A stretch of 64,000 nucleotides of DNA from Myxococcota bacterium (GTDB lineage Bacteria; Myxococcota_A; UBA796; UBA2385). Each line of letters begins with the position of its first letter. Positions within the stretch are counted from its first letter, which is position 1. The position numbers and the translations under genes were made by a program. Positions 11,987 through 30,617 of this stretch are shown here, piece by piece. The stretch spans positions 19,987-83,986 of the forward strand of contig JAKLKF010000011.1 of NCBI GenBank assembly GCA_023150805.1, read 5' to 3'. Below the pieces are notes generated by a model. That model was not told the DNA's origin. It made no database searches and saw only the letters and a program-made list of their open reading frames with translations.

Positions 11987-14900
11987 ATGCTCCCCCGCCA
12001 GCCATCGGGGTCCCTGTTGTCACTTCCAGAGCCGGGCCAGATCGTCCGCGTTCGTTCCCGCCAGTACCTCGTCGAAGAGGTCTCCCCTGGCGGCGCGCCC
12101 GAATTCGACTCCCGCGTCCGCCTCTCCTGCGTCGACGACGACGCGCAGGGCGACGAGCTGGAGGTCCTGTGGGAGCGTGAGGTCGACGCCGAGCTGCGGG
12201 TCGCCACCTGGCAGGCCGCGCTGCACAAGGGCTTCGACGACCCCAAGCTGTTCAGCGCCTGGCTGCACACCCTCCGCTGGAACTGCGTCACCAGCACGCG
12301 CCCCGACCTGTTCCAAGCCCCCTGGCGCGCCGGCATCGAGGTCAAGGCCTTCCAGCTCGAGCCGCTGCGCAAGGCGCTGCGCCTGCCCCGGGTGAACCTG
12401 TTCATCGCAGACGACGTGGGCCTGGGGAAGACTATCGAAGCCGGCCTCATCCTTCGTGAGCTGTTGATGCGCCAGAAGGTGCGGCGCGTCGTGATCTGCG
12501 TGCCCCCCTCCGTCTCGCTTCAGTGGCGCGACGAGATGGAGAGCCGCTTCGGGCTCGGCTTCGTCGTGCTGGACCGCGAGTACCTGGCCACCTGCCGCCG
12601 CGAGCGAGGCTTCGGCGTGAACCCGTGGACCACCCACACCCGGTTCATCCTCTCGCACGCCCTGCTCCGTGACGAGGCCTACGCGGGCACCCTGCGCGAG
12701 TGGCTCGGCAAGGTCATCCCCGCGCCAGGCACGCTGCTCATCCTGGACGAGGCGCACAACGCCGCACCGGCCAGCGGCGCCCGCTACGCCGTGGACTCCC
12801 GCTTCACCGAGGCCGTCCGCGACATCGCCAAGCGCTTCGAGCACCGGCTGTTCCTGTCGGCCACCCCCCACAACGGGCACAGCAACAGCTTCGCCGCCCT
12901 GCTCGAGATCCTCGACCCGCAGCGATTCTGCCGCGGGGTCAAGACCGGCCCCGCGCTCACCGAGCCGGTGATGGTGCGCCGCCTCAAGGACGACCTGCGC
13001 GAGGTCGAGGGGGGCTTCCCCCGACGCGACGTGGTTCGGGTGGTGCTGGACCGCCTGCCCGCCGATGCGGCCGAGCTGGTCCTGTCCCGCCTGCTCGCCG
13101 AGTACCGAACCGCCCGCGAGCAGCGCCTGGCCGGCCTGCCCCGTGGCCAGGTCAATGCCGCCATGCTGGTGCTCATCTCGCTCCAGAAGCGCCTGCTGTC
13201 CTCGGTCGACGCCTTCGCCCGCACCCTGCGCGCCCACCGGAACCGCTCCGCCCTGGCGCCCACCCCCGCTCCCGCCCCGGTCGCCGCGCAGGCCTCCTTG
13301 ATCCTGTCGGGAGTCACCAGCGACGACGACCGCGCCGAGCTGTCCGAGGACGAGGTGGACGCCGAGGAGGAGGCCGAGGTCGAGCGCGCCACCGCGGCCA
13401 CAGGGCTCGACCTGCCCGCCCGCGAGCGGGAGCTGCTGGCCCGCATGTCCGCGATCGCCGAGGAGGCCCGCCACCAGGCCGACGCCAAGGTCCGCTGGCT
13501 GCACGACTGGGTCCGGCGCGAGATGTTCGACGGTGGCGCCTGGAACGGACGGCGTGTGGTCGTCTTCACCGAGTACGCCGACACCCGGCGCTACCTGGTC
13601 ACGCAGCTCGAAACCCTGCTCGGTGAGGCAGCTCGCGGGCGCATCCTGACCTTCCACGGGGGCATGAACGAGGCCGCGCGAGAGGACGTGAAGCGCGCCT
13701 TCAACACCAGCCCCGCCGAACACCCCGTCCGCATCCTGGTCGCCACCGACGCCGCCCGCGAGGGTGTGAACCTCCAGAACCACTGCGCCGACCTGGTGCA
13801 CTTCGACGTGCCCTGGAACCCCAGCCGGATGGAGCAGCGCAACGGCCGCATCGACCGCAAGCTCCAGCGGGCCGAGGTGGTGCGTTGCCACTACTTCGTC
13901 ATGCCGCAGCGGGCCGAGGACCGCGTGCTGGACGTGCTCGCCGACAAGACCCGGACCATCCGCGAGGAGCTGGGCGTCTACCCGCCGCTGCTGGACGGCC
14001 TGGTGGAGAAGGCCCTGGCCCAGGGCATTCGCCACTCCGACACGGAGCGTCTCGCGGACGATATCCGGGGCCTGCGCCCCCCCCGGACCGCCGTCGACGA
14101 AGAGCTGGAGTCTGTTCGCGTGCGACGCAACGGCCTGCACGCGCAGCTCCAGGAGCTTCGGGGCCTGCTCGACCTGTCCAAGGAGTGGCTCGGGCTCGAC
14201 GACGACGCCTTCCGGGACGCGGTCTCGGCCTCGCTTCGGGTGCTGCAGGTCCCCGCGTTGCGCCCGATGGACACCTCTCGGGTGGCCGACGACCCGGCGC
14301 GCACCCCCTGGGAGTTCCCGGCGCTCGACCGCACCGCGGCCGGCCACGGCTGGGCCGACACGCTCGACGCCCTGCGCGTGCCTCGCCGCCGCGACCAGCG
14401 CCTGGCCGACTGGCGCCGTGACGCGCCGCTGCGCCCCATCGTGTTCCGCGACCCGGGCAGCCTGGACGGCAAGGTCGTCCACCTGCACCTGGAGCACCGC
14501 GTCGTGCAGCGCCTGCTCGGGCGCTTCATGTCCCAGGGCTTCGTCCACGACGACCTGTCGCGCGCCGCCGTCGTGCTGTCCGACGAACCCTCACCCTACG
14601 TGCTCGTGCTGGGGCGCCTGTCGCTCTACGGCGACCACGCCGCGCGCCTGCACGACGAGCTGCTGATCGCCGCCGCAGAGTGGGTCGAGCCCGAGCTGCG
14701 CGCGCGCAAGCTCCGACCGATGGGCGAGGAGGACCGCCGACAGACCCTGGCCCTGCTGGAGCGCTCGCTCCTGCACGCCCGCCCCGTCCCCCCGGGGGTG
14801 AGCGCCCGCCTGGCCGAGATCGCCCCCCGCGACGTCGCCGAGCTGGAGGGCCACCTCCGCCGCCGTGCGGAGACCCGCGCCAACGCCGCCGTCCGCGAGC

Positions 14901-15202
14901 TGGGCAAGCGCGCCGAGGCCGAGGCCAGGGACATGGTCGGCATCCTGCGCGAGCAGCGCAAGCACATCGAGGCCACCCTGGCCGACTGGCGCAGCAAGGA
15001 GCAGGAGCGGCAGACCTTCTTCGACTTCCCCGAGGCGGAGCGCCGCCAGGTCGCCGCCGACAAGCGCTACCAGGAGCAGCGCCTCAGGGACATCGACGCC
15101 GAGCTGTCCACCGAGCCCGAGCGCATCCGGCGGACCTACACGGTCAAGGCGCGGCGCGTCGAGCCGGTGGGCATCGTGTACCTCTGGCCCCGGACGGGGT
15201 AG
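11987..15202 (+). CDS. drmD: DISARM SNF2-like helicase DrmD
   Basis: ADDVGLGKT, LILDEAHN, SATPHNG, ATDAAREGVNLQ and WNPSRMEQRNGRIDR. First gene of a drmD-drmMI-drmA-drmB-drmC series. The start could be TTG 12017. Confidence 0.85.
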   Translation: MLPRQPSGSLLSLPEPGQIVRVRSRQYLVEEVSPGGAPEFDSRVRLSCVDDDAQGDELEVLWEREVDAELRVATWQAALHKGFDDPKLFSAWLHTLRWNCVTSTRPDLFQAPWRAGIEVKAFQLEPLRKALRLPRVNLFIADDVGLGKTIEAGLILRELLMRQKVRRVVICVPPSVSLQWRDEMESRFGLGFVVLDREYLATCRRERGFGVNPWTTHTRFILSHALLRDEAYAGTLREWLGKVIPAPGTLLILDEAHNAAPASGARYAVDSRFTEAVRDIAKRFEHRLFLSATPHNGHSNSFAALLEILDPQRFCRGVKTGPALTEPVMVRRLKDDLREVEGGFPRRDVVRVVLDRLPADAAELVLSRLLAEYRTAREQRLAGLPRGQVNAAMLVLISLQKRLLSSVDAFARTLRAHRNRSALAPTPAPAPVAAQASLILSGVTSDDDRAELSEDEVDAEEEAEVERATAATGLDLPARERELLARMSAIAEEARHQADAKVRWLHDWVRREMFDGGAWNGRRVVVFTEYADTRRYLVTQLETLLGEAARGRILTFHGGMNEAAREDVKRAFNTSPAEHPVRILVATDAAREGVNLQNHCADLVHFDVPWNPSRMEQRNGRIDRKLQRAEVVRCHYFVMPQRAEDRVLDVLADKTRTIREELGVYPPLLDGLVEKALAQGIRHSDTERLADDIRGLRPPRTAVDEELESVRVRRNGLHAQLQELRGLLDLSKEWLGLDDDAFRDAVSASLRVLQVPALRPMDTSRVADDPARTPWEFPALDRTAAGHGWADTLDALRVPRRRDQRLADWRRDAPLRPIVFRDPGSLDGKVVHLHLEHRVVQRLLGRFMSQGFVHDDLSRAAVVLSDEPSPYVLVLGRLSLYGDHAARLHDELLIAAAEWVEPELRARKLRPMGEEDRRQTLALLERSLLHARPVPPGVSARLAEIAPRDVAELEGHLRRRAETRANAAVRELGKRAEAEARDMVGILREQRKHIEATLADWRSKEQERQTFFDFPEAERRQVAADKRYQEQRLRDIDAELSTEPERIRRTYTVKARRVEPVGIVYLWPRTG

Positions 15203-15210
15203 GGACACCC

Positions 15211-16317
15211 ATGCTGAAGACCGTCCACTTCCAGTCCATCAAGGCCCTCCAGGACGTCCGCCTGGACCTGGCCCCCCTGACCTTCCTGGTGGGGCCCAAC
15301 GGCTGCGGGAAGAGCACCCTGCTGGACCAGATCGAGGTCCTCTGCGGGTGTAGCCACCACGATCCCGGGTCTCGGCATGCGCTCGGCCGCGCCGGTGAGG
15401 TCCTCAGCGCGGTCGACCCACCATCGCTTCGGACCGAAGGCGACAGCGACGGATCGATGAGCTGGCAGGGGCAGGACAGCTCGGGCGCCACCTTCTCCAT
15501 CGAGTGCCCTGCGGGACCCGCGAAGGGCTGGTATGACAGGGTGAAGCTCGTCGCGAGTGCGGACGGGCGCGCGCTGGCCATGGATGTCAATGAGCTACGG
15601 CAGGAGAAGCGAGCGGAGTTCGATGATCTCCTGTCTTCCCACTTGTCGTGGTGGTCCCAGCGGCTGCGACTGATCCCCCAGTACATCGCCGCTCCGGTGG
15701 ACGTTCGGGAGGAGAGGCTCGATCCCAGCGGCTACGGCCTGGCCTCCATCCTGACCGCATTCGCTTTGAACGACCAGCAGGCCTACGCCGCCCTCCAGGC
15801 CGACATGGCAGCCATCGTGCCCGAGTTCCAGCGCATTCACATCTCGAAGGTCGAGATCGAGGGCAAGGACAAGGTGAAGCACGGCGGCGTCTCGCTTGGC
15901 ATGGTCTTTCGGGGTGCCGGACGTCGCCCCGCGAGCCAGATCAGCGATGGCACCCTCGTCGCCCTGGCGCTGCTCACCGCCACCCACAACCGGGAGATGC
16001 CGCCCCTGGTGCTCATGGACGACATCGACCATGGCCTGCACCTCGGCGCGCAGATGACCCTCATCCGAGCGATCCGCAAGGTCATGGAGGTCCGCCCCGA
16101 TCTGCAGGTGGTGTGCACCACCCACTCGCCCTACCTGTTGGATGCGGCGAAGCCGGATGAGGTACGGGTCATGGCGCTCGACGCCAACGGCCACACCGTG
16201 GTCCGCCCACTCACCGCCTACCCCGACTTCGAGCGCCACCATCGCGGGCTCCAGACCGGCGAGTTCTGGGCGACCTTTGGGGAAGGCTGGGTCGCAGACA
16301 CGGGGGGCGTAGCGTGA
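15211..16317 (+). CDS. ABC-type (AAA_21-like) ATPase, cargo inside DISARM
   Basis: ATG 15211. Walker A GPNGCGKST, signature-like ISDGT, Walker B LMDDIDHGLH, H-loop TTHSPY. Confidence 0.85.
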   Translation: MLKTVHFQSIKALQDVRLDLAPLTFLVGPNGCGKSTLLDQIEVLCGCSHHDPGSRHALGRAGEVLSAVDPPSLRTEGDSDGSMSWQGQDSSGATFSIECPAGPAKGWYDRVKLVASADGRALAMDVNELRQEKRAEFDDLLSSHLSWWSQRLRLIPQYIAAPVDVREERLDPSGYGLASILTAFALNDQQAYAALQADMAAIVPEFQRIHISKVEIEGKDKVKHGGVSLGMVFRGAGRRPASQISDGTLVALALLTATHNREMPPLVLMDDIDHGLHLGAQMTLIRAIRKVMEVRPDLQVVCTTHSPYLLDAAKPDEVRVMALDANGHTVVRPLTAYPDFERHHRGLQTGEFWATFGEGWVADTGGVA

Positions 16318-17129
16318 GTGAAGGGGGGGTGCCGGTCTACGTCGTGGGGGAGGACCAGGTCCACAGGGCGCTCGGGATGGCCCTGGTGGACGCGGTGATC
16401 TCGAAGCTCGCGCACGACCGCGACGCCGACTGGGTCGATCCGGACACCGTCCGGCGCTGGTCGGCCCTGGCCGAGCCGCCGGGCATCGCCGAGAACCGCC
16501 GCTGGGGCAACATCAACGGTCCGTCCACGATCCGCCTGCACGGGCGCCTCGACGGCGCTCCGTACCTCCCGGGCGCTCGCCAGCTCCGAAGCGCCGTCGT
16601 CGAGCACGCGCGGGCCGAGCGCTCGCCGGGCCTGCTGGTGCTCCTGCGCGACACGGACGGGGATCCCGAGATCGCCCGCGGCGCACAGCAGGTGCGCGAC
16701 TGGATCGACAGTCGCCACGATCTCCCCCCAACGGCCAGCGGCTGCCCCCACCGCGACGCCGAGGCCTGGTTCTTCGCCGCAAGTGGCCTGACCGGTGAGG
16801 AAGCGCAGCGACTCGACCAGGCCTGCAAGGTGCTGAGCTTCGACCCGACCCGCCAGCCCGAGCGGCTCACCTCCAGCCCCAACGACGCCCGGACCGATGC
16901 CAAGCGCGTCGTCCGGTTCGTCCTCCTGGCCGAGGGAAGCAAGCTGGCGAAGGGGACCCCGGCCAGCCGGCCCCCGTCGCCCGACCAGGCGGACGCCCTG
17001 GCCGAGCGGGTGGCATCCGACCTCGACCAACTGGCGTCATACGACGACTGTGGCCTTGCACCCTTCGTCGACGGCCTGGAGAAGGCCCTTGTCGTCGCCC
17101 TCGACAGCCACCTCCCGCGGGCACCATGA
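16314..17129 (+). CDS. TOPRIM-like putative nuclease (DUF4276/RloB/AriB-like), partner of the upstream ATPase
   Basis: YVVGEDQ (TOPRIM Glu), LLRDTDGD (DxD) and DAEAWF. 4-bp overlaps on both sides. Confidence 0.55.
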   Translation: MSEGGVPVYVVGEDQVHRALGMALVDAVISKLAHDRDADWVDPDTVRRWSALAEPPGIAENRRWGNINGPSTIRLHGRLDGAPYLPGARQLRSAVVEHARAERSPGLLVLLRDTDGDPEIARGAQQVRDWIDSRHDLPPTASGCPHRDAEAWFFAASGLTGEEAQRLDQACKVLSFDPTRQPERLTSSPNDARTDAKRVVRFVLLAEGSKLAKGTPASRPPSPDQADALAERVASDLDQLASYDDCGLAPFVDGLEKALVVALDSHLPRAP

Positions 17130-20100
17130 GCGACCCCTCCACCCGCGCCCACCTCGCCTGGCTCGGCTACGTCCAGCCGGTGGGCCTGGTCGTGTCTCCC
17201 CCGGCGCTGGTGTCCGCCCAGTGCGCCCCTCCGCTCGACCTGGTCGCTCGACAGGCCAGGCTGCTGGAGCTGTGCCCGGACGGCCGGCTGGGCGACCTCG
17301 CCGCCTTCGCCCAGGGGCTGCTGGACTGGCAGCCAGGGGATCTGGTCCAGGCCGGGGACCTGGCCGACCTGGAGGTCCCCCTCCCCGAGTACAACGACGC
17401 CCTGCGGCCAGGCTGGGCGGTGCCGAAGCCCGATGGCGAGCCCGGTTGGCAGATGCTGATCGTCCGCGTGCCCGGCGACACCGACCTGGACGTCGCCCCC
17501 GAGGACGCCACACCCGACCGGGCGGGCGCCGGCTGGCGGGCCAGCCCCCAGGCCCGCATCGAGCGCCTGCTCCGCGAGCGCGAGGTGCCGGTCGGCCTGC
17601 TGTGCAACGACCACGTGCTGCGCCTGGTCTACGCCCCCAAGGGCGAGACCTCCGGCCACTTGAGCTTCGAGCTGGCCGCGATGCGGGCGGTGGCCGGCCG
17701 GCCCATCCTGGGCGCACTGTGCATGCTGCTCGGCGCCGAGCGACTGTTCGTGGTGCCCCCGAACAAGCGCCTGCCCCGCGTGCTGGAGGAGAGCCGCAAG
17801 TACCAGAACGAGGTCTCCACCCGGCTGGCTGAGCAGGTGCTGGCCGCCCTGGACGAGCTGGTCCGCGGCTTCGAGCTGGCGGACGCGGACCGCAAGGGCG
17901 ACCTGCTGCGCCACGCGCTGACCGTCGACCCCCAGCACGTCTACGGTGGCCTGATCACCGTGCTCCTGCGGCTGGTCTTCCTGCTCTATGCCGAGGAGCG
18001 GGACCTGATGCCCGCCGACCCGGTGTACGTGCAGCACTACTCGGTGGGCGGCCTGTACGAGCGGCTGCGTGCCGACGCCGGGCGGTACCCGGACACGATG
18101 GACCAGCGCTTCGGAGCCTGGGCCCGGCTGGTGTCGCTCTTCCGCCTGGTCCACGACGGCGGTGGCGACCAGGCCCTGCGCCTGCCCGCGCGCAGGGGCT
18201 CGCTCTTCGACCCCGAGGTCTACCCCTTCCTGGAGGGGCGCCCCTACCGCCAGATCACCAGCGAGCAGGCGCCCATCCAGGTGCCGCGGGTGCCCGACGG
18301 CGTGGTGTGGAAGGTGCTCGACGCGCTCTTGATGCTCAAGAACGGGGACCACGCCGAGCGCGTGGCCTTCCGCTCATTGGACGTCGAGCAGATCGGCTCG
18401 GTCTACGAGGCGATGATGGGCTTCGAGCTGAAGCGGGCCAGCGCCCCCAGCCTGGCCCTGCGCCCCAAGCGGATCGTCGTGAGCCTGCTGCACCTGCTGC
18501 ACACCAAGCCCGCCGACCGGGCCAGGGTGCTCAAGGCCGAGGCGGACTGCGGGCTGACGGGCACCGCCGCGACGGCGCTCAAGGACGCGCGCACCGCCGA
18601 GGAGCTGGCCGCCGCGCTGTCCCGCAAGGCCGTGGACGGGCGCATCATCGCCGCCGGCGGGCTGTACCTCCAGCCCGGGGAGGAGCGGCGCCGGTCGGGC
18701 TCGCACTACACCCCCCGCAGCCTGACCGAGCCCATCGTGCGCACGACGCTCCGCCCGGTGCTGGAGGCGCTCGGCCCCCGGCCCCGCCCCGAGCAGATCC
18801 TGGGGCTCAAGGTCTGCGACCCGGCCATGGGCAGCGGCGCCTTCCTGGTCGAGGCCTGCCGCCAGCTCGGCGCCGCACTGGTCCAGGCCTGGTCGCAGCA
18901 CCAGGCCACGCCCCCGATCCCCACGGACGAGCAGCCGGTGCTGCACGCCCAGCGGCTGGTGGCCCAGCGCTGCCTGTACGGCGTGGACAAGAACCCCTTC
19001 GCCGTCAGCCTGGCCAAGCTCTCCCTGTGGCTGGTCACCCTGGCCCGGGACCACGCCTTCACCTTCGTCGATCACGCGCTCAAGCACGGCGACTCGCTGG
19101 TGGGGCTGAGCCGCCGGCAGATCGGGCGCTTCGACTGGGGCGAAGACGACGCCGCGCTGCCGCCGCTGCTGGCCTGGATTCAGCGGCAGACGGCCTCGGC
19201 GAAGGCCCACCGCGCGGCCGTGCAGGGGGCCGGCGAGGGCGAGGAGGCGCGGCAGCGCGCGGAGTGGAAGGAGGCCGAGGACGCGGTCGAACCGGCCCGG
19301 GTGGCCGGAGACCTGTGCGTGGCCGCCTTCTTCGCCGCGGACAAGGACAAGGCGCGGGAGGAGCAGCGGCGGGAGCACCAGGCGCTGCTCGGGCGTTGGC
19401 GCGAGGGGGACCCGCAGGCAAGGGTCGGGGTCGTGCAGGTCCGGGATGGGCTGCGACGGAGCGGGGTGGTGCCCTTTCACTGGGAGGTGGAGTTTCCGGA
19501 GGTGTTCGATGGGGGCGGGTTCCATGCGGTGGTGGGGAATCCGCCGTTCTTGGGGGGAAAGAGGATCAGCACCGCTCATGGTGAGCAATTTCGCGACTGG
19601 CTTGTAACGGTACACCCTGACTCCAGCAGCAACTCGGATCTCGTTGCCCACTTCTATCGCCGGGCGTTTGGGCTTCTGCGCACTGGCGGCGCCTTCGGAC
19701 TGATCGCAACCAATACCATTGCCCAGGGTGACACTCGCGCAACCGGGCTGCGATGGATCCGCCAACAGGGTGGGAGTATCTATCACGCGACGCGGCGACT
19801 GAGTTGGCCCGGGTTGGCCGCCGTTGTGGTCAGCGTGGTGCATGTCGCGAAGGGCAGCACGGTCAAGCCGGCCCGGCTTGACGACAAGAAGGTCGATCAT
19901 GTCACCGCCTTCCTGTTCCCGAGCGGTCCAGACGACGACCCGGCGGCACTGGCAGCGAACGAAGGGCAGAGCTTCATCGGATTCCAGTTGACGGGTACCG
20001 GATTCACGTTCGACGACGAGAACGAGGAGGCGTCGTCCTTGGATGAAATGCGCCGGCTGGTTGCGGCAAACTCGCGCAACTCCGAACGCATCTTCCCGTA

Positions 20101-21076
20101 CATTGGTGGGCAGGAAGTCAACGAGAGCCCGACCCACGCTCATCGGCGATACGTGATCAACTTCGGCGAGCTGACGGAGGAGGAGGCGAGAAGGTGGCCG
20201 GAGCTGATGGCGATCATTGAGGACAAGGTGAGGCCATTCCGTCAGCAGGTGAACCGTGCCCGTCACCGTCAATTTTGGTGGCAGTTTGGTGAGACGCGGT
20301 CTGGCCTTGTGAAGGCTGTCAAGGGGTTGAGGCGCGTGCTGGTCGCTTGTATCGTGTCAAACAAGCCGAGCTTTGCCTTTCTTCCGGCAAACATGGTCTT
20401 TTCCCACAAGCTCGTCGTCTTCCCCCTCGACTCCTTCGCCGCGTTCGCCCTGCTCCAATCGCGCATTCACGACCTTTGGGCGCGCATGTTCTCGTCGACC
20501 ATGAAGGACGACCTAAACTACGCCCCCGCGGACTGCTTCGAGACCTTCCCCTTCCCCCCCGACTGGACCACTTCGCCCGCCCTCGAAGCCGCCGGCCAGG
20601 CCTACTACGACTTCCGCGCCGCCCTGATGGTCCGCAACAACCAGGGCCTCACCGCCACCTACAACCGCTTCCACGACCCCGACGAGACCGACCCCGACAT
20701 CCTCGAACTCCGCCGCCTGCACGCCGCCATGGACCGCGCCGTGCTCGACGCCTACGGCTGGACCGACATCCCCACCGACTGCGAGTTCCGCCTCGACTAC
20801 GAAGACCCCGAGGACGAGGACGACGACCCGGCCAGCAGCCCCCGCCGGAAGAAGAAGCCCTGGCGCTTCCGCTGGCCCGAGGCCGTCCACGACGAGGTCC
20901 TTGCCCGCCTGCTCGCCCTGAACCAGGAGCGCGCCGAGGCCGAGCGCAAGCTGGCCGCGCCCGAGAAGAAGGCCCGGCCCACTGCCGCGGCCCCCCGGCG
21001 CGGCCGAGCCAAGAAGGGCGCCGCGCCCCCCGCCCCCGACCTGTTCACCTCTAGAAAGCCAGGAACTGGTGACTGA
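17126..21076 (+). CDS. drmMI: DISARM N6-adenine DNA methyltransferase DrmMI (Eco57I/type IIG-like)
   Basis: Motif I DPAMGSGAFL, motif IV VGNPPF, GSHYTP, and its position within the DISARM gene order. Confidence 0.85.
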   Translation: MSDPSTRAHLAWLGYVQPVGLVVSPPALVSAQCAPPLDLVARQARLLELCPDGRLGDLAAFAQGLLDWQPGDLVQAGDLADLEVPLPEYNDALRPGWAVPKPDGEPGWQMLIVRVPGDTDLDVAPEDATPDRAGAGWRASPQARIERLLREREVPVGLLCNDHVLRLVYAPKGETSGHLSFELAAMRAVAGRPILGALCMLLGAERLFVVPPNKRLPRVLEESRKYQNEVSTRLAEQVLAALDELVRGFELADADRKGDLLRHALTVDPQHVYGGLITVLLRLVFLLYAEERDLMPADPVYVQHYSVGGLYERLRADAGRYPDTMDQRFGAWARLVSLFRLVHDGGGDQALRLPARRGSLFDPEVYPFLEGRPYRQITSEQAPIQVPRVPDGVVWKVLDALLMLKNGDHAERVAFRSLDVEQIGSVYEAMMGFELKRASAPSLALRPKRIVVSLLHLLHTKPADRARVLKAEADCGLTGTAATALKDARTAEELAAALSRKAVDGRIIAAGGLYLQPGEERRRSGSHYTPRSLTEPIVRTTLRPVLEALGPRPRPEQILGLKVCDPAMGSGAFLVEACRQLGAALVQAWSQHQATPPIPTDEQPVLHAQRLVAQRCLYGVDKNPFAVSLAKLSLWLVTLARDHAFTFVDHALKHGDSLVGLSRRQIGRFDWGEDDAALPPLLAWIQRQTASAKAHRAAVQGAGEGEEARQRAEWKEAEDAVEPARVAGDLCVAAFFAADKDKAREEQRREHQALLGRWREGDPQARVGVVQVRDGLRRSGVVPFHWEVEFPEVFDGGGFHAVVGNPPFLGGKRISTAHGEQFRDWLVTVHPDSSSNSDLVAHFYRRAFGLLRTGGAFGLIATNTIAQGDTRATGLRWIRQQGGSIYHATRRLSWPGLAAVVVSVVHVAKGSTVKPARLDDKKVDHVTAFLFPSGPDDDPAALAANEGQSFIGFQLTGTGFTFDDENEEASSLDEMRRLVAANSRNSERIFPYIGGQEVNESPTHAHRRYVINFGELTEEEARRWPELMAIIEDKVRPFRQQVNRARHRQFWWQFGETRSGLVKAVKGLRRVLVACIVSNKPSFAFLPANMVFSHKLVVFPLDSFAAFALLQSRIHDLWARMFSSTMKDDLNYAPADCFETFPFPPDWTTSPALEAAGQAYYDFRAALMVRNNQGLTATYNRFHDPDETDPDILELRRLHAAMDRAVLDAYGWTDIPTDCEFRLDYEDPEDEDDDPASSPRRKKKPWRFRWPEAVHDEVLARLLALNQERAEAERKLAAPEKKARPTAAAPRRGRAKKGAAPPAPDLFTSRKPGTGD

Positions 21077-21078
21077 CC

Positions 21079-22635
21079 ATGGCCAACACGCAAATACTCG
21101 CCCTCACGGTTGAACGGTTCAAGAGCTACGAGAAAGCAACGCGCATCGACCTGAAACCGCTGACGGTGGTGCTGGGCCGGAACAGCGGCGGCAAGAGTAC
21201 ACCGGACCCCCGCAGCGAAGTACCGATCAAGCTGGAGGGCTTGGTCGAGGCATTCAACTTGCGCGAGTTGACCTGGGGATGGCCGCCCGCCAACGGTCGG
21301 GTGCCTGGGCCGATCGTGGAGATTGAGTGGACCTCTGATGTCGACATTGCTCAGGCGCGCCATGTGGGCCGAAACCCCGACCCGGAGAATTTGGCGAAAC
21401 ACGCACACGTTGAGTGGTTTCGCGACCTTCCCCCGCGCGCGAACCTTCGAAGTGCCTTGCGGATCGAGACCGCAGAGCATCAAGGAGTCACGCGAATCGA
21501 ACGGCTGACGGTTACGGCAAAGTGCGTGAATGGTGAGCCGTCGTTCGTGTTGACCCAAGAAGGCGGTAGTTGGAAGCTCAGCTACAGGGGTGACCTCGCG
21601 GGGAGACTCGCGGTGGAAGTTGACCACTTCATCCCATACCTCCGGATCGACAGGTCTGACGTTGGCCCGCGTAGCCGGGAGCGCGCGTGGTTCAACGCCT
21701 GGCTCATCTTGTTCGCGCAGCCGCTCGAATCGCTCAAGCGCGCGCTCACCGACCTGCAATACCTTGGGTCAACGCGGGTGCCGCCGCCTTCGCTGTTCCG
21801 TCCGGTGACGGTGGCCCCGCAGGAGATCGGAGTCAGCGGCGAGTTCGCCGCGCAGCTCCTGCACCGGCGCGAACGGGACGTGGTCCACTACCTCCCCGCC
21901 CTCGTGGTCACCGAGGCCTCGGCCTCGATTCCCGAGAACGTCCTCGCACTGCCTCTCGTCGACGCGGTCAACTCCGTGCTGGCAGACCTCTCCATCGGGA
22001 GCCCGGTGAAGGTAGAGGTTGTTCAGGAGATCGGGTTCCGCCTTCTGTTCGGGAATGCGAGCCTCACCCATGTAGGACGCGGGCTGACCTACCTCCTTCC
22101 GCTCGTGGAGTTGGGGTTGTTTGCAGACCCGCTCCGATTCTCAGGTAGTGCGGCGGAGACGCCCCTTGCCGACTACCTTGCGGCCTGTGAGAGTCACTCA
22201 CACATCGCTTTGGAAGAGCCCGAGGCCCACCTGCACCCCAAGGTCCAGAGCCGGTTGGCGCACTGGCTCGTCAGCCTTGCCCTATCGAGGCGACGCCTCA
22301 TCGTCGAGACGCACAGCGATCACCTCGTCCGGCGCTTGAGGGGCCTGGCTGCCAGAGCCGGGGTCGGCAGCCCGCTGGAGAAGTGGCTGCTGGAGAACGT
22401 CGCCGTGATTGAAGTCGAGCAGGATGCGCAGGGACGATCGACCGTACGAACGGGCGGACTCACTGCGGAGGGGGGGATCACGGAGTCCTGGCCTGCCGAC
22501 TTCATGGATGAGGCAAGCGCCGAGGATTCCGCGATCTTCTACGCGGGGCTTGCGAAGGCCCCTGTTGAGTCCCAGGCGCCAGTCGCGTCACCATTCATTC
22601 ATGACGAGGGTGACGAGGATGAGGTGGAGCCGTGA
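21079..22635 (+). CDS. ABC-type ATPase with C-terminal DUF3696-like region (apparent deletion after Walker A)
   Basis: Walker A GRNSGGKST, Walker B ALEEPEAHLHP, H-loop VETHSDH, C-terminal GGITESWPADFMDE. Confidence 0.8.
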   Translation: MANTQILALTVERFKSYEKATRIDLKPLTVVLGRNSGGKSTPDPRSEVPIKLEGLVEAFNLRELTWGWPPANGRVPGPIVEIEWTSDVDIAQARHVGRNPDPENLAKHAHVEWFRDLPPRANLRSALRIETAEHQGVTRIERLTVTAKCVNGEPSFVLTQEGGSWKLSYRGDLAGRLAVEVDHFIPYLRIDRSDVGPRSRERAWFNAWLILFAQPLESLKRALTDLQYLGSTRVPPPSLFRPVTVAPQEIGVSGEFAAQLLHRRERDVVHYLPALVVTEASASIPENVLALPLVDAVNSVLADLSIGSPVKVEVVQEIGFRLLFGNASLTHVGRGLTYLLPLVELGLFADPLRFSGSAAETPLADYLAACESHSHIALEEPEAHLHPKVQSRLAHWLVSLALSRRRLIVETHSDHLVRRLRGLAARAGVGSPLEKWLLENVAVIEVEQDAQGRSTVRTGGLTAEGGITESWPADFMDEASAEDSAIFYAGLAKAPVESQAPVASPFIHDEGDEDEVEP

Positions 22636-23558
22636 TAGCGCTACTGGACCCGGCACTGTTCCTGCGCCCTGGACGCCCTGGGATTCCCCTGGCCGCCCAA
22701 GATGAGGCGGCACTTCTGACGGAGTTGAGGGGAGTGCTCGCGGCCATGAGGATTGCGGGAGCGGACCTCGCGGCAGTGGACGGGTATTGGAGCCCGCTTT
22801 GGACTGAGATCATCGGCCCGCTTCAACGAAGGATGAAGACGGTGGATGGGCCAAAGCTGTTGCAGGAGCTGCGAAAGGCGGGCAGGACATACGAGGGGCT
22901 GGGACCCGTGGCCCCAGGTACGAGAATATGGGGGTTTCGGGCCATGTTCGGTCATGGCTCTGGTGTTCCGGCGGAGTGGGAGGAACGGCTCGCAGTAGCC
23001 GCTGCCCGGCTGGTCGCCATCGGGCGCCCGTTGCTGGTCCTGACCCGGCTCGTCGAAGGTCGCAACTTGCACACCCACATGGGCAAGGCGCACTCCTCCA
23101 TCGCTGAGGTCACCCGATGGCGGCTCTCAGTTCGCCCGCCTCGTTCGGCCGCCAGTACACACATCCCCTGCGTGCGCGCACCCTCGCAGATTCAGCGTCC
23201 CTGGACGGTGCGGTTCGATCCCCGCCTCCCCACCGACCGCGACCTTGTTCGATACCCCTTCTGCCTCCCACAACGGTGGGACCGCCGCGACATCGTCGCA
23301 GTTCGCACCTTCTCCTCTGCACCGGCCTGGGTGGACGCGGCTGGGCGAGAATGGGAGCGCCCGAACATCCCCGAGGGGCGAGGACACCACTGGGACGTCT
23401 TCCTCGATTCTCCTCATGACGTCGGCCGAGTCGGGGTTGACCAGCTCAACATCGTGGAGTTCGGAGCGCCACCGCGCGAGGGCACACCGGGAACGATTCA
23501 CCACGTTCCAGCGGCGAAGGCCGGCCGGGTGACGGACGTAGGTTGGGGCTGTCCATGA
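22632..23558 (+). CDS. Hypothetical protein, possible C-terminal RNase-toxin-like domain
   Basis: GTGA overlap with the ATPase. C-terminal WVDAAGREW ... GHHWDV ... LNI motif. Confidence 0.6.
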   Translation: MIALLDPALFLRPGRPGIPLAAQDEAALLTELRGVLAAMRIAGADLAAVDGYWSPLWTEIIGPLQRRMKTVDGPKLLQELRKAGRTYEGLGPVAPGTRIWGFRAMFGHGSGVPAEWEERLAVAAARLVAIGRPLLVLTRLVEGRNLHTHMGKAHSSIAEVTRWRLSVRPPRSAASTHIPCVRAPSQIQRPWTVRFDPRLPTDRDLVRYPFCLPQRWDRRDIVAVRTFSSAPAWVDAAGREWERPNIPEGRGHHWDVFLDSPHDVGRVGVDQLNIVEFGAPPREGTPGTIHHVPAAKAGRVTDVGWGCP

Positions 23559-23628
23559 GCGCAACTCATCTCGTGGCGAGCTACTGCCACTGCCTCCAGT
23601 GGGCCGCTATCAGCCGAGGAGATCTGTC

Positions 23629-24447
23629 ATGGAAGTCCTGAGCAGCACCGACATCTCCCGCGAGGTCCTCTCCCTCATCGAGGGCTCGCGCCAGTTCCTC
23701 CTGTTGATCTCCGCCTACTTCGACCCATGGGACCGGCTGTCCACCGAGATCAAGCGCGCTGCCACCCGGCCGGGGCTCAAGGTCCTATTGCTGCTCCGCG
23801 GCGGCGACGACCAGAAGAAGCACGCCGAAAAGGCCACCGATCTGGAGCGCGTGGGGGTCAAGGTCCAGTACCTGACCCGCCTGCACGCCAAGGTCTACAT
23901 CAGCGAGTCCCAGGCCATCGTGACCTCGATGAACCTGGTCAAGGCCTCAGCGCTGGACTCCTGGGAGATCGCGATTCGCATCGACCGCGACAAGGACGGC
24001 GAGGCCTACGCCGAGGTGGTCAAGCATGCCAAGGAGCTGCTGACGCGCTCGCGGGACGAGACGACCATCGCGGGGCGGGCGAAGGCCGACGCCCAGGTGG
24101 ACTCGCTGGCTTCGTTGTTCACCCCGGGCAACCTGGGCGCGGTCGCCAAGGTCGTCGAGGCCCTGGTCGGCGCGACCTCGTCGGGCTCCGGCCCCATGAA
24201 GAAGAGCAAGGCGGCGACGCGCAAGACCTCAGGCGCCCGGAAGAGCGCGGCGCCCACTGGTACCTGCATCCGCTGCGGAGATGACATCGCGTTGAACCCC
24301 GACAAGCCCCTATGCGGCTCCTGCTACAAGGAGTGGGCCACCTACGGCAACGCCGACTACAAGGAGAGCTACTGCCACGCCTGCGGGGACGAGCACGTCA
24401 CGACGATGGCCAAGCCCTTGTGCAGGGCCTGCTGGCGGGCCGCATGA
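23629..24447 (+). CDS. PLD-family (HKD) nuclease with C-terminal tandem zinc ribbons
   Basis: LHAKVYISE ... TSMNL (HxKxxxxE ... SxN). Four CxxC pairs: CIRC, CGSC, CHAC, CRAC. Confidence 0.8.
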   Translation: MEVLSSTDISREVLSLIEGSRQFLLLISAYFDPWDRLSTEIKRAATRPGLKVLLLLRGGDDQKKHAEKATDLERVGVKVQYLTRLHAKVYISESQAIVTSMNLVKASALDSWEIAIRIDRDKDGEAYAEVVKHAKELLTRSRDETTIAGRAKADAQVDSLASLFTPGNLGAVAKVVEALVGATSSGSGPMKKSKAATRKTSGARKSAAPTGTCIRCGDDIALNPDKPLCGSCYKEWATYGNADYKESYCHACGDEHVTTMAKPLCRACWRAA

Positions 24448-27400
24448 CGCCGGAGCAGGTGCGCAGCACCCTCGTCGACGCCCTCCGCCTGGACCTGGTC
24501 GGGCCCTCTCCCGACGACGTCCTCCACGCCGCCGAGACCCTGCCCACGTCGCCCTCGACCTGGTACCTCACGGGCTTCCTGGTGCCCTTCGAGGCCGCCG
24601 AGCCCGACGACACCGCCACCGAGCAGGTCGACCAGCTCCGCGCGCGACCGGGCGCCGACGACGACCCGGCGCCCGACCGCAGCTCAGCCCGCAAGGCGCC
24701 CTTCCCGTCCTCCATCGGCCTGTCGGTGCTGCTGCCCGCCGATGCCCGGGCGCTCGACCTGGAGTTCTCCTGGGGCGACTACGCGCCCCTGCCGAAGGAA
24801 GACCCCGAGACGCCCGGTCCGGTCCGGTGGGTGCGCACGCCCCGGTCCGCCCGGCTCTCGGTGCGCCTGGACGAGCGGGCGCCGGTGGCCATCCCGGGCA
24901 GCGGTGGCCTGCGGGTCCAGGTCGCCTGCCGGCCGGCGCGGACCGGCAACGGCGGCGCGCCGGTCCAGGCCGCCTCGGTCTTCCTGGTGAACCACCGGCC
25001 CGCCGCGCCCGACGTGGGGCGGGACGCGGCCTTCGCCTTCCAGGCGACGCTGCGCCTGGTTTCGGATCACCCCTTCGTGGCCCGCCCGGACCTGCGAGGG
25101 CACGGGGGCTCCGACCGCGACGAGCGGGTCGCCGAGCTCCAGTTCCGCGACTGTTTCGAGTACGCCGTCGGCCACGGCGTGGCGACGGTGGCCGAGGCCG
25201 ATCCGGACGGCGCCTGCCGCGCGGTCCGCACGGAGTGGGTGCCCCAGGCCGACGTGGAGCGGGTCGAGCCCAGCAAGGTCGACGGTGTCGAGCTGGGCAT
25301 GGAGGCCCTGGCCGGGCTGCCGGACGGCCAGGCGGCGCGCCGGGCGCTGGGCATGCTGCCGCAGCGGTACGCCGACTGGATCGAGCGCCAGCGGGCCACC
25401 CCCCTCGACACCGAGCCCCGGCGGGCGCTGTCCGCCGAGCTGATGGACGCGGCCGACTTCGCCCGCAGCCGCATCGAGGCGGGCATCGCGCTGCTGGACG
25501 ACGACCGCGTGCGAGGTGCGTTCACCCTCGCCAACCGGGTCATGGCCGCGGCCGCCCGGCAGCGGGACGCGATCCGGACCGGCATGGCCCCGGCCGCGGT
25601 GGATCCACCGACCTGGCGGCCCTTCCAGCTCGCCTTCCTGCTGCTGAACCTCCGCGGCATCGTTCAGCCCGGCCACGCCGAGCGGCGCACCGTCGACCTG
25701 CTGTTCTTCCCCACCGGCGGTGGCAAGACCGAGGCCTACCTGGGACTGGCGGCCTTCTCGCTGGTCTGGCGGCGCCTGGGGAACCCGGGCATCGCCAGCG
25801 CCGGGGTCACGGTCCTGATGCGCTACACGCTGCGCCTGTTGACCTTCGACCAGCTCGGGCGCGCCGCGGCGCTGGTCTGCGCCTTGGAGCTGGAGCGGCA
25901 GCGCGACCCGGCGACGCTGGGCACGTGGCCCTTCGAGATCGGGCTGTGGGTGGGCATGGCGGCCACGCCCAACCGCATGGGCACGCGGGACAACCCCGAC
26001 CCGAACACCGCGCGGGTCAAGGTGGACCGCTTCGCGCGGGGCAAGGGGCCCAGCCCCATCCCGCTCGAGACCTGCCCGTGGTGCGGCACGCAGTTCAAGC
26101 CGCTGTCCTTCCAGCTCGTGCCCGACGCCAACTACCCCTCCGACCTGCGGCTCGTCTGCGTCAACCGGGGCTGTCCCTTCGGCGGCAGGAACCCGCTGCC
26201 CATCCTCACGGTGGACGAGCCCATCTACCGCCGCCTGCCGGGCTTCCTCGTCGCCACGGTGGACAAGTTCGCCCAGCTCCCCTGGGTGGCCGAGTCGGGC
26301 AAGCTGCTCGGCCGGGCCGAGCGATATGACAGCGCCGGCTTCTACGGGGCGGCAGAGCCGGGGGCTGGCATTCCGCTCCCGGGGGGTGCCCTGCTCCCGC
26401 CGGACCTGGTCATCCAGGACGAGCTGCACCTGATCTCCGGCCCGCTCGGCACGATGGTGGGGCTGGTTGAGACCGCCATCGACGCGCTGTCGGCGCGGGT
26501 GGTGGACGGCCACCCGGTCCGGCCCAAGGTGGTCGCCTCGACGGCGACGGTGCGACGGGCGGAGCGCCAGATCCAGGCGCTCTTCGGGCGCGGCTCGGTG
26601 GAGGTCTTCCCGCCGCCCGGGCCGGACCGGCGGGACAGCTTCTTCGCCGAGACGGTACGCACCAGCGCGGTGCCGGGCCGGCGCTACGTCGGCGTGGCCG
26701 CCCAGGGGCGCAGCCTCAAGGTCGTGTTCCTGCGCACGCTCCTGGCGATCTTGTCCGCGGCGCAGACGGCGTGGGAGGACGCGGGCGGCAAGCGGGCGAA
26801 ACCGAACCCCGCCGACCCGTACATGAGCCTGGTGGCCTACTTCAACAGCCTGAGAGAGCTGGGTGGCAGCCGGCGCATCGTCGAAGACGAGGTCGCCTCT
26901 CGCCTGGCCGGCTACGGCTCGCGCCGGCGGGAGGGAGAGCCCACCGGACCCTTCCGCGACCGTCGCATCGCCCAGCCGGTGGAGCTGACCTCGCGGGAGA
27001 GCACGAGCAAGGTGGCAGACACCAAGCGCCGCCTGGAGCTGTCCTTCCACGATGACGACCGCGTCGATGTCGCCCTGGCCACCAACATGATCTCGGTGGG
27101 CCTGGACATCACGCGGTTGGGCCTGATGGTCGTCGTCGGCCAGCCCAAGATGTCGTCCGAGTACATCCAGGCCACCAGCCGCGTGGGGCGCGATCCGACC
27201 CGGCCGGGCCTGGTGGTCACCCTGATGAACCTCCACCGGCCACGCGACCGCTCCCACTACGAGAGCTTCGCCGCCTACCACCAGTCCTTCTACCGCTCGG
27301 TCGAGGCCACCAGCGTCACGCCCTTCTCGCCCCGGGCCATCGACCGGGGGATCGCCGGGGTGACCGTCACCCTGGCCCGGCACGGCCTGCGCTCGCTGAC

Positions 27401-30567: not shown

Positions 30568-30617
30568 TCGACGACTCCAAGGTCGGGCCGCAGTAGGCCC
30601 TGGGGGTTGGAGGCCCG

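What the first reader, a model, noticed from the sequence alone, without database searches (positions are those of the whole stretch)
19441..20900. Mirror-image strand skew flanking variable segments: G-rich on the left, C-rich on the right
Seen (hand counts): 19441-19560, just before the variable part of drmMI, has 57 G versus 23 C, with unusual T/G-ending codons (TTT, GAT, CAT, AAT, TTG, AGG, GGG). 20581-20700, just after it, has 26 G versus 56 C. The same polarity recurs at the end of drmC before the CHAT cassette (30421-30470: 33 G, 4 C), at the start of drmA after the cargo (24481-24560: 42 C, 19 G), and by eye at the starts of drmD, drmMI and the yaiI-like gene. Much of the skew sits at synonymous sites. 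Inference: this is the footprint of repeated cassette exchange (strand-specific mutation at recombination tracts) or selected G-tract/C-tract structures (G4/i-motif or loose long-range pairing) marking exchange points.
Basis: partly seen in the sequence, partly recalled or inferred. Interest (0 to 1): 0.66.

Follow-up and report, generated by a model that had tools for sequence, protein, structure and literature searches.

The report
Mirror-image strand bias at DISARM cassette borders
In a bacterial anti-phage (DISARM) operon, the conserved DNA just left of each swappable segment is G-rich and the DNA just right of it is C-rich, mostly at silent codon positions; relatives from other phyla share the pattern, so it looks like a selected signal at exchange borders, though its mechanism is unproven.

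Summary
All four hand counts are exact. Given the amino acids and the next base, 19441-19560 (z=+6.9) and 30421-30468 (z=+5.6) lie in the top 0.01% of the genome's coding windows. 20581-20700 lies in the lowest 0.2%. 24481-24560 is not unusual in this genome.

Closely related drmMI genes (85-93% identical at the nucleotide level in the N part) all carry unrelated variable parts (45-52%). The breakpoints are sharp, at nt ~19550-19565 and ~20516-20546. The gene-wide maximum and minimum of skew abut these two breakpoints.

The bias at four-fold sites recurs at the same positions in distant homologues: G excess on the left in 21 of 23, C excess on the right in 18 of 23.

Core genes that follow a variable slot (drmD, drmMI, drmA) start C-rich. 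drmD and drmC end G-rich. drmB and drmC starts and 39 cargo genes do not show this, and the drmMI 3' end breaks the rule.

G-quadruplex motifs, specific left-right pairing, optimal-codon usage and a simple deamination scar are each not supported.

Best reading (about 40%): a selected, polar composition that marks the edges of conserved recombination anchors. RNA-level explanations remain open.

The parts
11987..15202 (+). drmD (SNF2 helicase). C-rich first ~90 nt and G-rich last ~60 nt across the clade.
   Evidence: PADLOC DrmD 1073 bits. First-60-nt skew -0.25 and last-60-nt skew +0.29, n=5. Four-fold G/(G+C) is 0.08-0.36 in the first 20 codons and 0.60-0.91 in the last 20.
15211..17129 (+). 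Variable cargo slot 1 (ATPase plus a 271-aa protein). Relatives carry different or no genes here.
   Evidence: Gene orders of L044-L049. Identity falls to the random level (0.3) right after the drmD stop.
17126..19165 (+). drmMI N-terminal conserved part. Start is C-rich, then synonymous composition is near neutral and drifts towards G.
   Evidence: PADLOC DrmMI 1308 bits. Residual z is about 0 over 17126-19100. Clade four-fold G rises 0.32 -> 0.44 -> 0.49 -> 0.55.
19166..19560 (+). G(/T)-rich, C-poor left border block, ending with methyltransferase motif IV (NPPF). It peaks at 19441-19560.
   Evidence: z=+6.9 after amino-acid and context control. Clade four-fold sites are G 0.76, C 0.11, and two-fold Y sites are 51% T. 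Gene-wide skew maximum at aa 786-803.
19561..20515 (+). Replaced cassette: C-terminal half of the MTase domain plus the target recognition domain. GC3 is lower (0.65-0.85).
   Evidence: 45-62% nucleotide identity between relatives whose N parts are 75-93% identical. Breakpoints at aa ~810-814 and ~1131-1141. GC3 profile. Pfam MmeI_Mtase and MmeI_TRD.
20516..20900 (+). C-rich, G-poor right border block (FETFPFPP...RNNQGLTATYNRFHDPDE). In this genome the C-richness already starts at ~20366.
   Evidence: z=-3.8 to -5.2. Clade four-fold sites are C 0.83, G 0.13, and A at R sites is 0.17 against 0.04 elsewhere. Gene-wide skew minimum at aa 1131-1150. Least structured RNA of the gene for its GC.
21079..24447 (+). 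Variable cargo slot 2 (AAA ATPase, 308-aa protein, PLD-like protein).
   Evidence: Pfam and PADLOC hits. Relatives carry different cargo.
24444..24600 (+). Start of drmA. C-rich in the clade. In this genome it is only modest and not significant after amino-acid control.
   Evidence: First-60-nt skew -0.42 over six loci; Q itself is -0.13, then -0.6 to -0.2 further in. 24481-24560 gives z=-1.8. ATGA overlap at 24444 read.
30421..30471 (+). G-rich, C-free tail of drmC. All 16 last codons end in G, including TTG x2 and AGG.
   Evidence: z=+5.6, 3e-5 of genome windows. The same codons occur in L046, which has a different downstream gene. Sequence read.

Best explanation
The locus is a class 1 DISARM operon built from four conserved blocks: drmD, the drmMI N part, the drmMI C part, and drmA-drmB-drmC. 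These are separated by DNA that is replaced wholesale between relatives: two cargo slots and, inside drmMI, a ~1-kb segment that encodes the C-terminal half of the methyltransferase domain and the target recognition domain.

Shown:
- The edges of the conserved blocks carry a polar composition at synonymous sites.
- Block starts are C-rich and G-poor. Block ends are G(/T)-rich and C-poor. At both edges, therefore, the strand whose 3' end points towards the variable DNA is the G-rich one.
- The bias peaks within 20-30 codons of the homology breakpoints.
- It persists at homologous positions in drmMI genes of several phyla.

Inferred:
- Because synonymous sites are near saturation between these genes, the bias is held by selection on the nucleic acid, not by ancestry or a mutation scar.

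Most likely function (inferred, unproven): the edges act as polar recombination anchors. After a break in or next to the variable DNA, 5'-3' resection would leave 3' tails that are G/T-rich. This is the composition RecA filaments prefer and the polarity on which RecBCD reads Chi-type signals. Strand invasion would then start in the conserved edge, and a homologous allele could donate a different cassette.
For: Locus identity:
- All five DISARM class 1 genes are present.

Cassette replacement:
- Six homologues that are 84-93% identical at the nucleotide level in the N part and 83-95% in the C block have variable parts that are only 45-52% identical.
- Q's cassette is closest to that of L048, whose backbone is the most distant one.
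- Breakpoints are sharp: identity 87-91% falls to 40% at aa 804-823, and 55% rises to 86% at aa 1122-1150.

Co-location:
- Among 270 windows over the whole gene, the maximum of clade-mean skew is at aa 786-803 (+0.61) and the minimum at aa 1131-1150 (-0.52).

Synonymous nature and rarity:
- z=+6.9, -3.8 and +5.6 after amino-acid and next-base control.
- drmMI ranks 6th of 4234 genes for within-gene range of four-fold G/(G+C).

Persistence:
- With each gene's own N part as the null, the left block has a G excess in 21 of 23 homologues (p=3e-6) and the right block a C excess in 18 of 23 (p=1e-3).
- Four-fold identity is close to what composition alone gives in every region.

Association with slots rather than with gene boundaries:
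- First-60-nt skew: drmD -0.25, drmMI -0.35, drmA -0.42. By contrast drmB is -0.11, drmC +0.17, and 39 cargo genes average -0.08.
- Last-60-nt skew: drmD +0.29 and drmC +0.60, against +0.02 for cargo genes.

Other points:
- Ribosomal genes (0.36-0.52) and EF-Tu (0.67) show that this is not an optimal-codon effect.
- MmeI-like paralogues with the same motifs in equally GC-rich relatives lack the bias (L042, L043).
- A RecC-like gene with a RecB-like neighbour is present in the genome.
- RecA prefers TGG-type repeats that resemble Chi (PMC3763553).
- TRDs are known to move by recombination at conserved flanks (PMC3077401, PMC3467074).
- A strong, conserved coding-strand GC skew is held to be important for gene conversion at the Borrelia vls locus (PMC11499132).
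Against: - There is no direct evidence of recombination activity or of breaks.
- The host's Chi sequence could not be inferred.
- The rule fails at the 3' end of drmMI (last-60-nt skew -0.18).
- It is not significant at the drmA start of this genome.
- The bias is weak or absent in homologues with low GC3 and in L004. A universal RecA preference does not predict this.
- As single-stranded DNA, the G-rich strand is only mildly less structured than average. It is the C-rich strand that is unstructured.
- The polarity suits breaks inside the resident variable DNA. It does not suit RecBCD entering an incoming linear fragment.
- The homologues are not phylogenetically independent, and only five core gene families underlie the slot against non-slot contrast (roughly 7 of 8 borders against 0 of 4).
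Confidence: 0.4

Rival explanations
1. RNA-level functions, one for each kind of tract. The C-rich, G-poor tracts keep the mRNA unstructured. At the starts of core genes this would give initiation that does not depend on whatever cargo lies upstream. After the drmMI cassette it would give a long Rho-loading (rut-like) stretch. That stretch would abort transcription of the downstream nuclease and helicase genes if translation of the methylase stops early, which would be a fail-safe against self-attack. The G-rich tracts would serve Shine-Dalgarno-like or ribosome-pausing roles.
For: 20366-20790 is by far the least structured RNA of drmMI for its GC content: MFE -8 to -22 against a mean of -34 kcal/mol per 90 nt. 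20401-21060 has 292 C and 172 G. A full-length Rho homologue is present. The genome shows a weak trend in the same direction at gene starts and ends. The bias is seen mainly in GC-rich homologues, where G/C skew is the only way to lose structure without losing GC. In L046 the G-rich drmC tail carries the ribosome-binding site of the overlapping next gene.
Against: Thirty-nine cargo gene starts and the drmB and drmC starts lack the C-richness. The two strongest tracts lie inside drmMI, far from any start or stop. The G-rich left block is not unstructured as RNA, and this reading gives it no clear role. Two unrelated functions must be invoked for what is a mirror-symmetric pattern.
Confidence: 0.25
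2. There is no function of its own. The bias would be a family idiosyncrasy: conserved protein motifs that are G-rich (GG, VV, W, E) or C-rich (P, F, T, D, Y) by nature, plus context-dependent codon choice and inherited composition. It would coincide with the breakpoints only because the breakpoints must fall where protein conservation starts.
For: Amino-acid composition alone explains about 60% of the variance of window skew genome-wide and about 45% of the right-block skew. The next base matters strongly: P(G3) is 0.26 before T and 0.54 before C. The high nucleotide identity of the C block is compositional and not evidence of recent sharing. Other genes in the genome show comparable within-gene ranges; drmMI is 6th, not 1st.
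Against: The residual after amino-acid and context control is still in the 1e-4 to 2e-3 tails. Genome-wide there is no correlation between amino-acid-driven skew and synonymous residual (r=-0.01). Paralogues with the same motifs lack the bias. The bias persists in 18-21 of 23 homologues at 41-67% protein identity, where synonymous sites should have relaxed. Other highly conserved blocks of drmMI (aa 500-640) are not skewed.
Confidence: 0.17
3. Mutational footprint of repeated exchange. The 3' tails exposed by resection on both sides of the variable DNA suffer cytosine deamination. This would deplete C on the + strand at the left and G on the + strand at the right.
For: Polarity and mirror symmetry are as predicted. 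In the left block, T rises to 51% at two-fold Y sites. A 20-fold C->T excess reproduces that value and gives G > C at four-fold sites. In the right block, A at R sites rises from 0.04 to 0.17.
Against: The same model predicts T of about 0.14 at four-fold sites on the left (observed 0.05). On the right it predicts C of about 0.54 (observed 0.83) with A of about 0.07 (observed 0.01). A scar would also have to be renewed independently in many phyla at the same codons.
Confidence: 0.08
4. Selected G-quadruplex or i-motif structures, or a long-range G-tract to C-tract pairing, that mark or stimulate exchange.
For: The drmC tail reaches G4Hunter 2.16, within the top 0.2% of genome windows, and 20536 reaches -1.92. 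G4 and GC skew are linked to gene conversion at pilE and vls (PMC3585125, PMC4412290).
Against: No canonical four-tract motif with loops of 1-7 occurs in any of the three tracts, although the genome has 1.2 per kb. The left block peaks at only 1.60. The left-right duplex is no better than shuffles (z=-1.1), and the left block pairs equally well elsewhere. Only short, imperfect inverted repeats are found.
Confidence: 0.05

Closest known systems
Movement of target recognition domains by homologous recombination at conserved flanks (Type I HsdS, Type IIG and Type III methyltransferases; 'domain movement', PMC3077401, PMC3467074)
   Same: A specificity-determining segment is replaced as a unit between conserved flanking sequences of a restriction-modification type methyltransferase. 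Backbone and cassette have different histories.
   Different: No mirror-image strand composition of the flanks has been reported for those systems, as far as the papers I searched show. Here the replaced unit also includes motifs of the catalytic domain downstream of motif IV.
Programmed inversions in class 1 DISARM drmMI, BREX pglX and Cj0031-type genes (PMC9881135)
   Same: The same gene family is involved, and the C-terminal specificity part is the variable part.
   Different: Those loci hold inverted partial copies and switch within one genome. This genome has no second copy of the flanks or of the cassette. Variation is seen only between genomes.
Borrelia vls antigenic variation locus, and the pilE G4 of Neisseria (PMC11499132, PMC3585125, PMC4412290)
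   Same: A strong, evolutionarily maintained coding-strand GC skew is tied to a locus that varies by recombination. It is thought to be selected for the exchange process.
   Different: In vls the skew (about 0.5) covers the cassettes themselves, has one sign, comes with G-runs, and works with silent donor cassettes. Here the skew lies in the conserved borders, has opposite signs on the two sides, lacks canonical G4 motifs, and there are no silent cassettes.
Chi sites and the preference of RecA for GT-rich (TGG-type) DNA (PMC3763553, PMC5041463)
   Same: Both are G/T-rich, strand-specific and polar. The left block holds GCGGTGGTGGGG in all eight close homologues. The orientation is the one read by an enzyme moving outwards from the variable DNA.
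   Different: No defined octamer could be identified for this host. The feature is a 100-400 nt compositional tract, not a short site.
Rho utilisation (rut) regions
   Same: A long C-rich, G-poor, unstructured RNA stretch in a genome with a Rho homologue.
   Different: It lies within a translated gene, and termination was not tested. rut sites do not explain the G-rich partner tracts.

Membership tests
Class 1 DISARM | drmD (SNF2 helicase), drmMI (N6-adenine methyltransferase), drmA (helicase), drmB (DUF1998/MZB) and drmC (PLD) in one locus | tested here: met
   PADLOC scores: DrmD 1073, DrmMI 1308, DrmA 945, DrmB 244, DrmC 256 bits. Pfam: SNF2-rel_dom, Eco57I/N6_Mtase, Helicase_C, MZB, PLDc_2.
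MmeI-like (type IIG/IIL) methyltransferase-TRD architecture | Gamma-class N6-adenine MTase domain with an NPPF/Y motif, followed by an MmeI-type TRD | tested here: met
   Pfam MmeI_Mtase 72 bits, MmeI_TRD 57 bits, Eco57I 74 bits. NPPF read at 19529-19540.
MmeI-like (type IIG/IIL) methyltransferase-TRD architecture | N-terminal MmeI-type endonuclease domain | tested here: inconclusive
   MmeI_N scores 25.3 bits, below the curated cut-off of 27.
Cassette exchange by homologous recombination at conserved flanks | Backbone and cassette have discordant similarity, with sharp breakpoints | tested here: met
   N part 84-93% against variable part 45-52% identity. Q's cassette is nearest to that of the most distant backbone, L048. 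Breakpoints at aa ~810-814 and ~1131-1141.
Cassette exchange by homologous recombination at conserved flanks | Exchange observed within a population, or flank tracts shared more recently than the backbone | tested here: inconclusive
   Four-fold-site identity in the flanks is near the value that composition alone gives.
Programmed-inversion (shufflon-like) specificity switch | Inverted partial copies of the variable gene in the same genome | tested here: not met
   blastn and tblastn of the flanks and the cassette against the 7.77-Mb assembly (90.7% complete) find only the gene itself.
G-quadruplex-driven gene conversion (pilE/vls type) | Four G-runs able to form a G4 on the G-rich strand | tested here: not met
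   No G3+N1-7 x4 motif occurs in 19100-19600, 20350-20950 or 30380-30620 on either strand. Only loop 1-12 matches are found, at 19391-19445.
G-quadruplex-driven gene conversion (pilE/vls type) | Silent donor cassettes | tested here: not met
Chi recombination hotspot | A defined, over-represented, replication-strand-skewed oligomer recognised by the host's RecBCD or AddAB | tested here: inconclusive
   RecC-like gene (462 bits, below cut-off) with a RecB-like neighbour. The 8-mer skew scan gave no outlier: best skews 0.55-0.64 against 0.50-0.57 expected.
Rho-dependent terminator (rut region) | At least 80 nt of C-rich, G-poor, unstructured RNA | tested here: met
   20401-21060 has 292 C and 172 G. 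MFE residuals are +13 to +24 kcal/mol per 90 nt. Rho homologue scores 412 bits.
Rho-dependent terminator (rut region) | Rho-dependent 3' ends downstream | not testable with these tools
   No transcript data are available.
Diversity-generating retroelement | Reverse transcriptase plus a template repeat matching the variable region | tested here: not met
   No second copy of the variable region. No RT domain among the ten locus proteins.

The most novel reading that the evidence does not exclude
Defence operons such as DISARM may carry a compositional 'grammar' for plug-and-play exchange. Every conserved block would be written so that its outward-pointing 3' strand is G/T-rich at synonymous sites. 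Any break in an adjacent variable segment (TRD cassette or cargo slot) would then be channelled by RecBCD and RecA into strand invasion at the block edge and replacement of the segment from a homologous allele. In this reading, selection on silent sites maintains evolvability of specificity and cargo across phyla.
Probability: 0.22. Interest if true: 0.85.

Novelty: new variant of a known kind. Interest (0 to 1): 0.62.

Why it matters
Defence systems change their specificity modules and embedded cargo quickly, and this is usually put down to recombination in conserved flanks. If silent sites at those flanks are under selection for a polar composition, three things follow. Exchange borders could be predicted from sequence alone. 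There would be a testable handle (synonymous recoding) on how defence islands stay modular. Methyltransferase specificity swapping would be linked to the strand-skewed recombination loci known from antigenic variation. If instead the C-rich block is a Rho entry site, it would be a built-in safeguard that ties expression of the DISARM effector genes to an intact methylase reading frame. Either way it is a clear case of strong, position-specific synonymous constraint in genes not expected to be highly expressed.

Tried and rejected
- Optimal-codon explanation. Ribosomal protein genes have four-fold G/(G+C) of 0.36-0.52 and EF-Tu 0.67, nowhere near 0.13 or 0.86.
- General gradient along genes. 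Genome-wide meta-profiles show only 0.39 (first 10 codons) and 0.47 (last 20) against 0.44, and no decile trend in 220 long genes.
- Mosaic of donors with different codon usage. Four-fold identity is near compositional chance in all regions. The bias recurs in distant homologues, so it is not inherited from a donor.
- Recent sharing of the C block. Its 91-98% nucleotide identity is explained by extreme C usage plus conserved protein sequence.
- Silent cassettes or inverted copies. None are present in the assembly.
- Specific left-right complementarity. None beyond composition.
- Canonical G4. Absent.
- -1 frameshift or poly-G phase variation at TTGGGGGGAAAG (19549-19560). The G GGA AAG heptamer is not conserved. 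G6-G7 runs occur in only some homologues.
- Overlapping ORFs in another frame (18307-19584 and 20347-21054). These are the expected by-product of G/C at the third positions of drmMI, and I did not pursue them further.
- Chi inference by strand-skewed 8-mers. There was no outlier. Orienting the contigs of this MAG is uncertain.
- Replication-related skew. For this contig the replication-like component at four-fold sites is about -0.01.
- A genome-contig scan with the protein gave no relative closer than 67%. No genome of the same family has a close copy; the best is 52%.

Full report
WHAT IS THERE

The window lies on contig C22 of a 7.77-Mb, 74% GC metagenome-assembled genome with 398 contigs. 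The region 11987-30471 is a complete class 1 DISARM operon. Its core genes are drmD (11987-15202), drmMI (17126-21076), drmA (from 24444), drmB and drmC (29671-30471). Extra genes sit between drmD and drmMI and between drmMI and drmA, and a CHAT-domain gene lies downstream. DrmMI has the MmeI-like layout: an N6-adenine methyltransferase domain followed by an MmeI-type target recognition domain.

CHECK OF THE OBSERVATION

All four hand counts are exact. Against all genome windows of equal size:
- 19441-19560 (skew +0.425) is at about the 99.9th percentile.
- 20581-20700 (-0.366) is at about the 0.3rd percentile.
- 30421-30470 (+0.784) is far outside the 99.9th percentile.
- The wider tracts 19201-19560 and 20401-21060 are beyond the 0.1% tails.

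I called genes with a simple GC3 criterion: 4319 ORFs covering 77% of the genome. I then asked how much skew the amino-acid sequence predicts, given genome-wide codon usage and, in a second model, the following base.

Amino-acid composition explains about 60% of the variance of window skew genome-wide. It does not explain these tracts. Observed G minus C against the expected value:
- Left tract: 35 against 4-6.
- Right tract: -29 against -13.
- drmC tail: 28 against 9-11.

Judged against the empirical genome-wide distribution of such residuals, these lie at 8e-5, 2e-3 and 3e-5. The fourth tract, 24481-24560, is ordinary (z=-1.8).

drmMI ranks 6th of 4234 genes for within-gene range of G/(G+C) at four-fold sites.

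THE VARIABLE SEGMENT AND ITS BREAKPOINTS

The closest proteins in the large collection are about 70% identical. Identity to them is 75-90% up to about aa 800, 25-60% over aa 800-1120, and 80-100% over aa 1141-1260.

I fetched the DNA of six of these loci and used L001 from the genome scan. Six of the genes are 84-93% identical to each other at the nucleotide level in the N part and 83-95% in the C block. Their variable parts are only 45-52% identical. This is replacement, not gradual divergence.

The cassette of this window is closest to that of L048, whose backbone is the most distant one.

The breakpoints are sharp:
- Left: mean pairwise identity falls from 87-91% (aa 786-803) to 40% (aa 814-823).
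- Right: it rises from 55% (aa 1122-1130) to 86% (aa 1141-1150).

Within the variable part, GC3 drops from about 0.95 to 0.65-0.85.

SKEW AND BREAKPOINTS COINCIDE

The eight-sequence mean skew was scored in 270 overlapping 20-codon windows over the whole gene. Its maximum is at aa 786-803 (+0.61; every sequence at +0.46 or above). Its minimum is at aa 1131-1150 (-0.52). Both are directly against the two breakpoints.

THE BIAS IS SYNONYMOUS, DIRECTIONAL AND OLD

At four-fold degenerate sites of the eight genes, G rises along the N part:
- aa 1-200: 0.32
- aa 201-400: 0.44
- aa 401-600: 0.49
- aa 601-680: 0.55
- aa 681-770: 0.63
- aa 771-814: 0.76, with C only 0.11

In aa 771-814, T reaches 51% at two-fold pyrimidine-ending sites, against 5-10% elsewhere. 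After the cassette, C is 0.83 and G 0.13 over aa 1141-1265. There, A at purine-ending two-fold sites is 0.17 against 0.04 elsewhere. The left block therefore avoids C and the right block avoids G.

Identity at four-fold sites is only slightly above what composition alone gives, in every region. The 91-98% nucleotide identity of the C block is therefore a product of extreme composition plus a conserved protein. It is not evidence of recent sharing.

In 30 further loci from several phyla, the same polarity appears in most of the GC-rich genes. With each gene's own N part as the codon-family null:
- The left block shows a G excess in 21 of 23 genes (Wilcoxon p=3e-6).
- The right block shows a C excess in 18 of 23 genes (p=1e-3).

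The bias is weak or absent in genes with low GC3, in L004, and in two MmeI-like paralogues that share the protein motifs. These tests are not phylogenetically independent. At 41-67% protein identity, however, synonymous sites should have relaxed unless something holds them.

OTHER BORDERS

In the close loci, the three core genes that follow a variable slot start C-rich. First-60-nt skew is -0.25 for drmD, -0.35 for drmMI and -0.42 for drmA. By contrast drmB (-0.11), drmC (+0.17) and 39 cargo genes (-0.08) do not.

drmD and drmC end G-rich (+0.29 and +0.60), whereas cargo genes average +0.02. The G-rich drmC tail uses the same codons in L046, where the next gene is different. Identity jumps exactly at these gene borders.

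There are exceptions:
- The 3' end of drmMI is not G-rich (-0.18).
- In this genome, the start at 16314 is G-rich.
- In this genome, the drmA start is only mildly C-rich.

Genome-wide, gene starts and ends show only a faint trend in the same direction.

EXPLANATIONS TESTED

- Optimal codons: rejected.
- Replication skew: negligible on this contig.
- Silent cassettes or inverted copies, as in the programmed inversions described for DrmMI (PMC9881135): none found.
- Specific pairing of the two tracts: none beyond composition.
- Canonical G4 motifs: absent from all three tracts, although the genome has 1.2 per kb. G4Hunter peaks are 1.60, -1.92 and 2.16.
- Deamination scar. A four-state model with raised C->T on one strand, tuned to the two-fold sites, over-predicts T on the left (0.14 against 0.05). 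It fails on the right (C 0.54 against 0.83).

MECHANISM

What remains is selection on the nucleic acid at the edges of conserved blocks. The mirror symmetry means that the strand whose 3' end points to the variable DNA is G-rich on both sides. This is natural for a DNA process.

After a break in variable DNA, resection would leave G/T-rich 3' tails in the block edges. RecA prefers TGG-type sequence (PMC3763553), and RecBCD reads Chi on that strand and in that direction. A RecC-like gene is present. The left block holds GCGGTGGTGGGG in all eight close homologues. TRD movement by recombination at conserved flanks is established (PMC3077401, PMC3467074). A maintained coding-strand GC skew is held to be important for gene conversion at the Borrelia vls locus (PMC11499132).

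I rate this reading at about 0.4. The points against it are:
- The host's Chi could not be found.
- The G-rich strand is only mildly unstructured as single-stranded DNA.
- The pattern fades in homologues with low GC3.

The main rival is RNA-level. The right block is the least structured RNA of the gene. It is C-rich and G-poor over about 400 nt, which is what a Rho entry site looks like, and a Rho homologue exists. Such a site after the cassette could stop transcription of the downstream effector genes when the methylase frame is broken. This rival does not explain the G-rich tracts, and it does not explain why cargo genes lack C-rich starts.

LIMITS

- The baseline gene calls are crude.
- The genome is a MAG with 4.6% estimated contamination.
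- The homologues share ancestry.

Noticed in passing
L044-L049 (whole loci) and window 15211-17129, 21079-24447: Close DISARM relatives carry quite different gene sets in the two slots. Examples are an AAA_15 ATPase with a 250-aa partner, a NucS-like nuclease, PDDEXK_4, PLD, an RVT_1 reverse transcriptase, an HNH protein, a ParA-like ATPase and DUF4276. Some have an empty slot between drmD and drmMI (L044, L048).
   Followed up: partly
window 45829-48093 (- strand): This 754-aa ORF ranks 3rd of 4234 genes for within-gene range of G/(G+C) at four-fold sites (0.90 down to 0.12). It may be another mosaic gene or a mis-called ORF.
   Followed up: no
window 19549-19560; L045 and L047 at the aligned position: A G6 run (TTGGGGGGAAAG) sits exactly at the left breakpoint. 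The homologues L045 and L047 have G7 there. In this genome the run also forms a G GGA AAG heptamer. This is not conserved across the clade.
   Followed up: partly
window 24312-24447: The longest ORF for drmA starts at 24312, inside the PLD-like gene. An ATG at 24444 overlaps that gene's stop (ATGA) and is the more likely start.
   Followed up: partly
L001 (CAMAXZ010000003.1): The closest relative in the species-genome collection (67% identical) has a 68% GC drmMI, on a contig of a MAG labelled Klebsiella pneumoniae. That is far too GC-rich for that species, so the contig is probably mis-binned.
   Followed up: no
whole genome (G000): Coding strands are C-rich at four-fold sites throughout this genome (mean skew component -0.115, sd 0.043 across contigs). 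EF-Tu goes the other way, with G/(G+C) of 0.67.
   Followed up: no
window 20950-21076: The last ~35 codons of drmMI form a second variable stretch (41-66% identity among otherwise close genes), directly before cargo slot 2.
   Followed up: no
window 30472-30617: The spacer between drmC and the CHAT gene stays G-rich for about 90 nt after the stop. The same holds in L046, where the next gene overlaps the stop.
   Followed up: no
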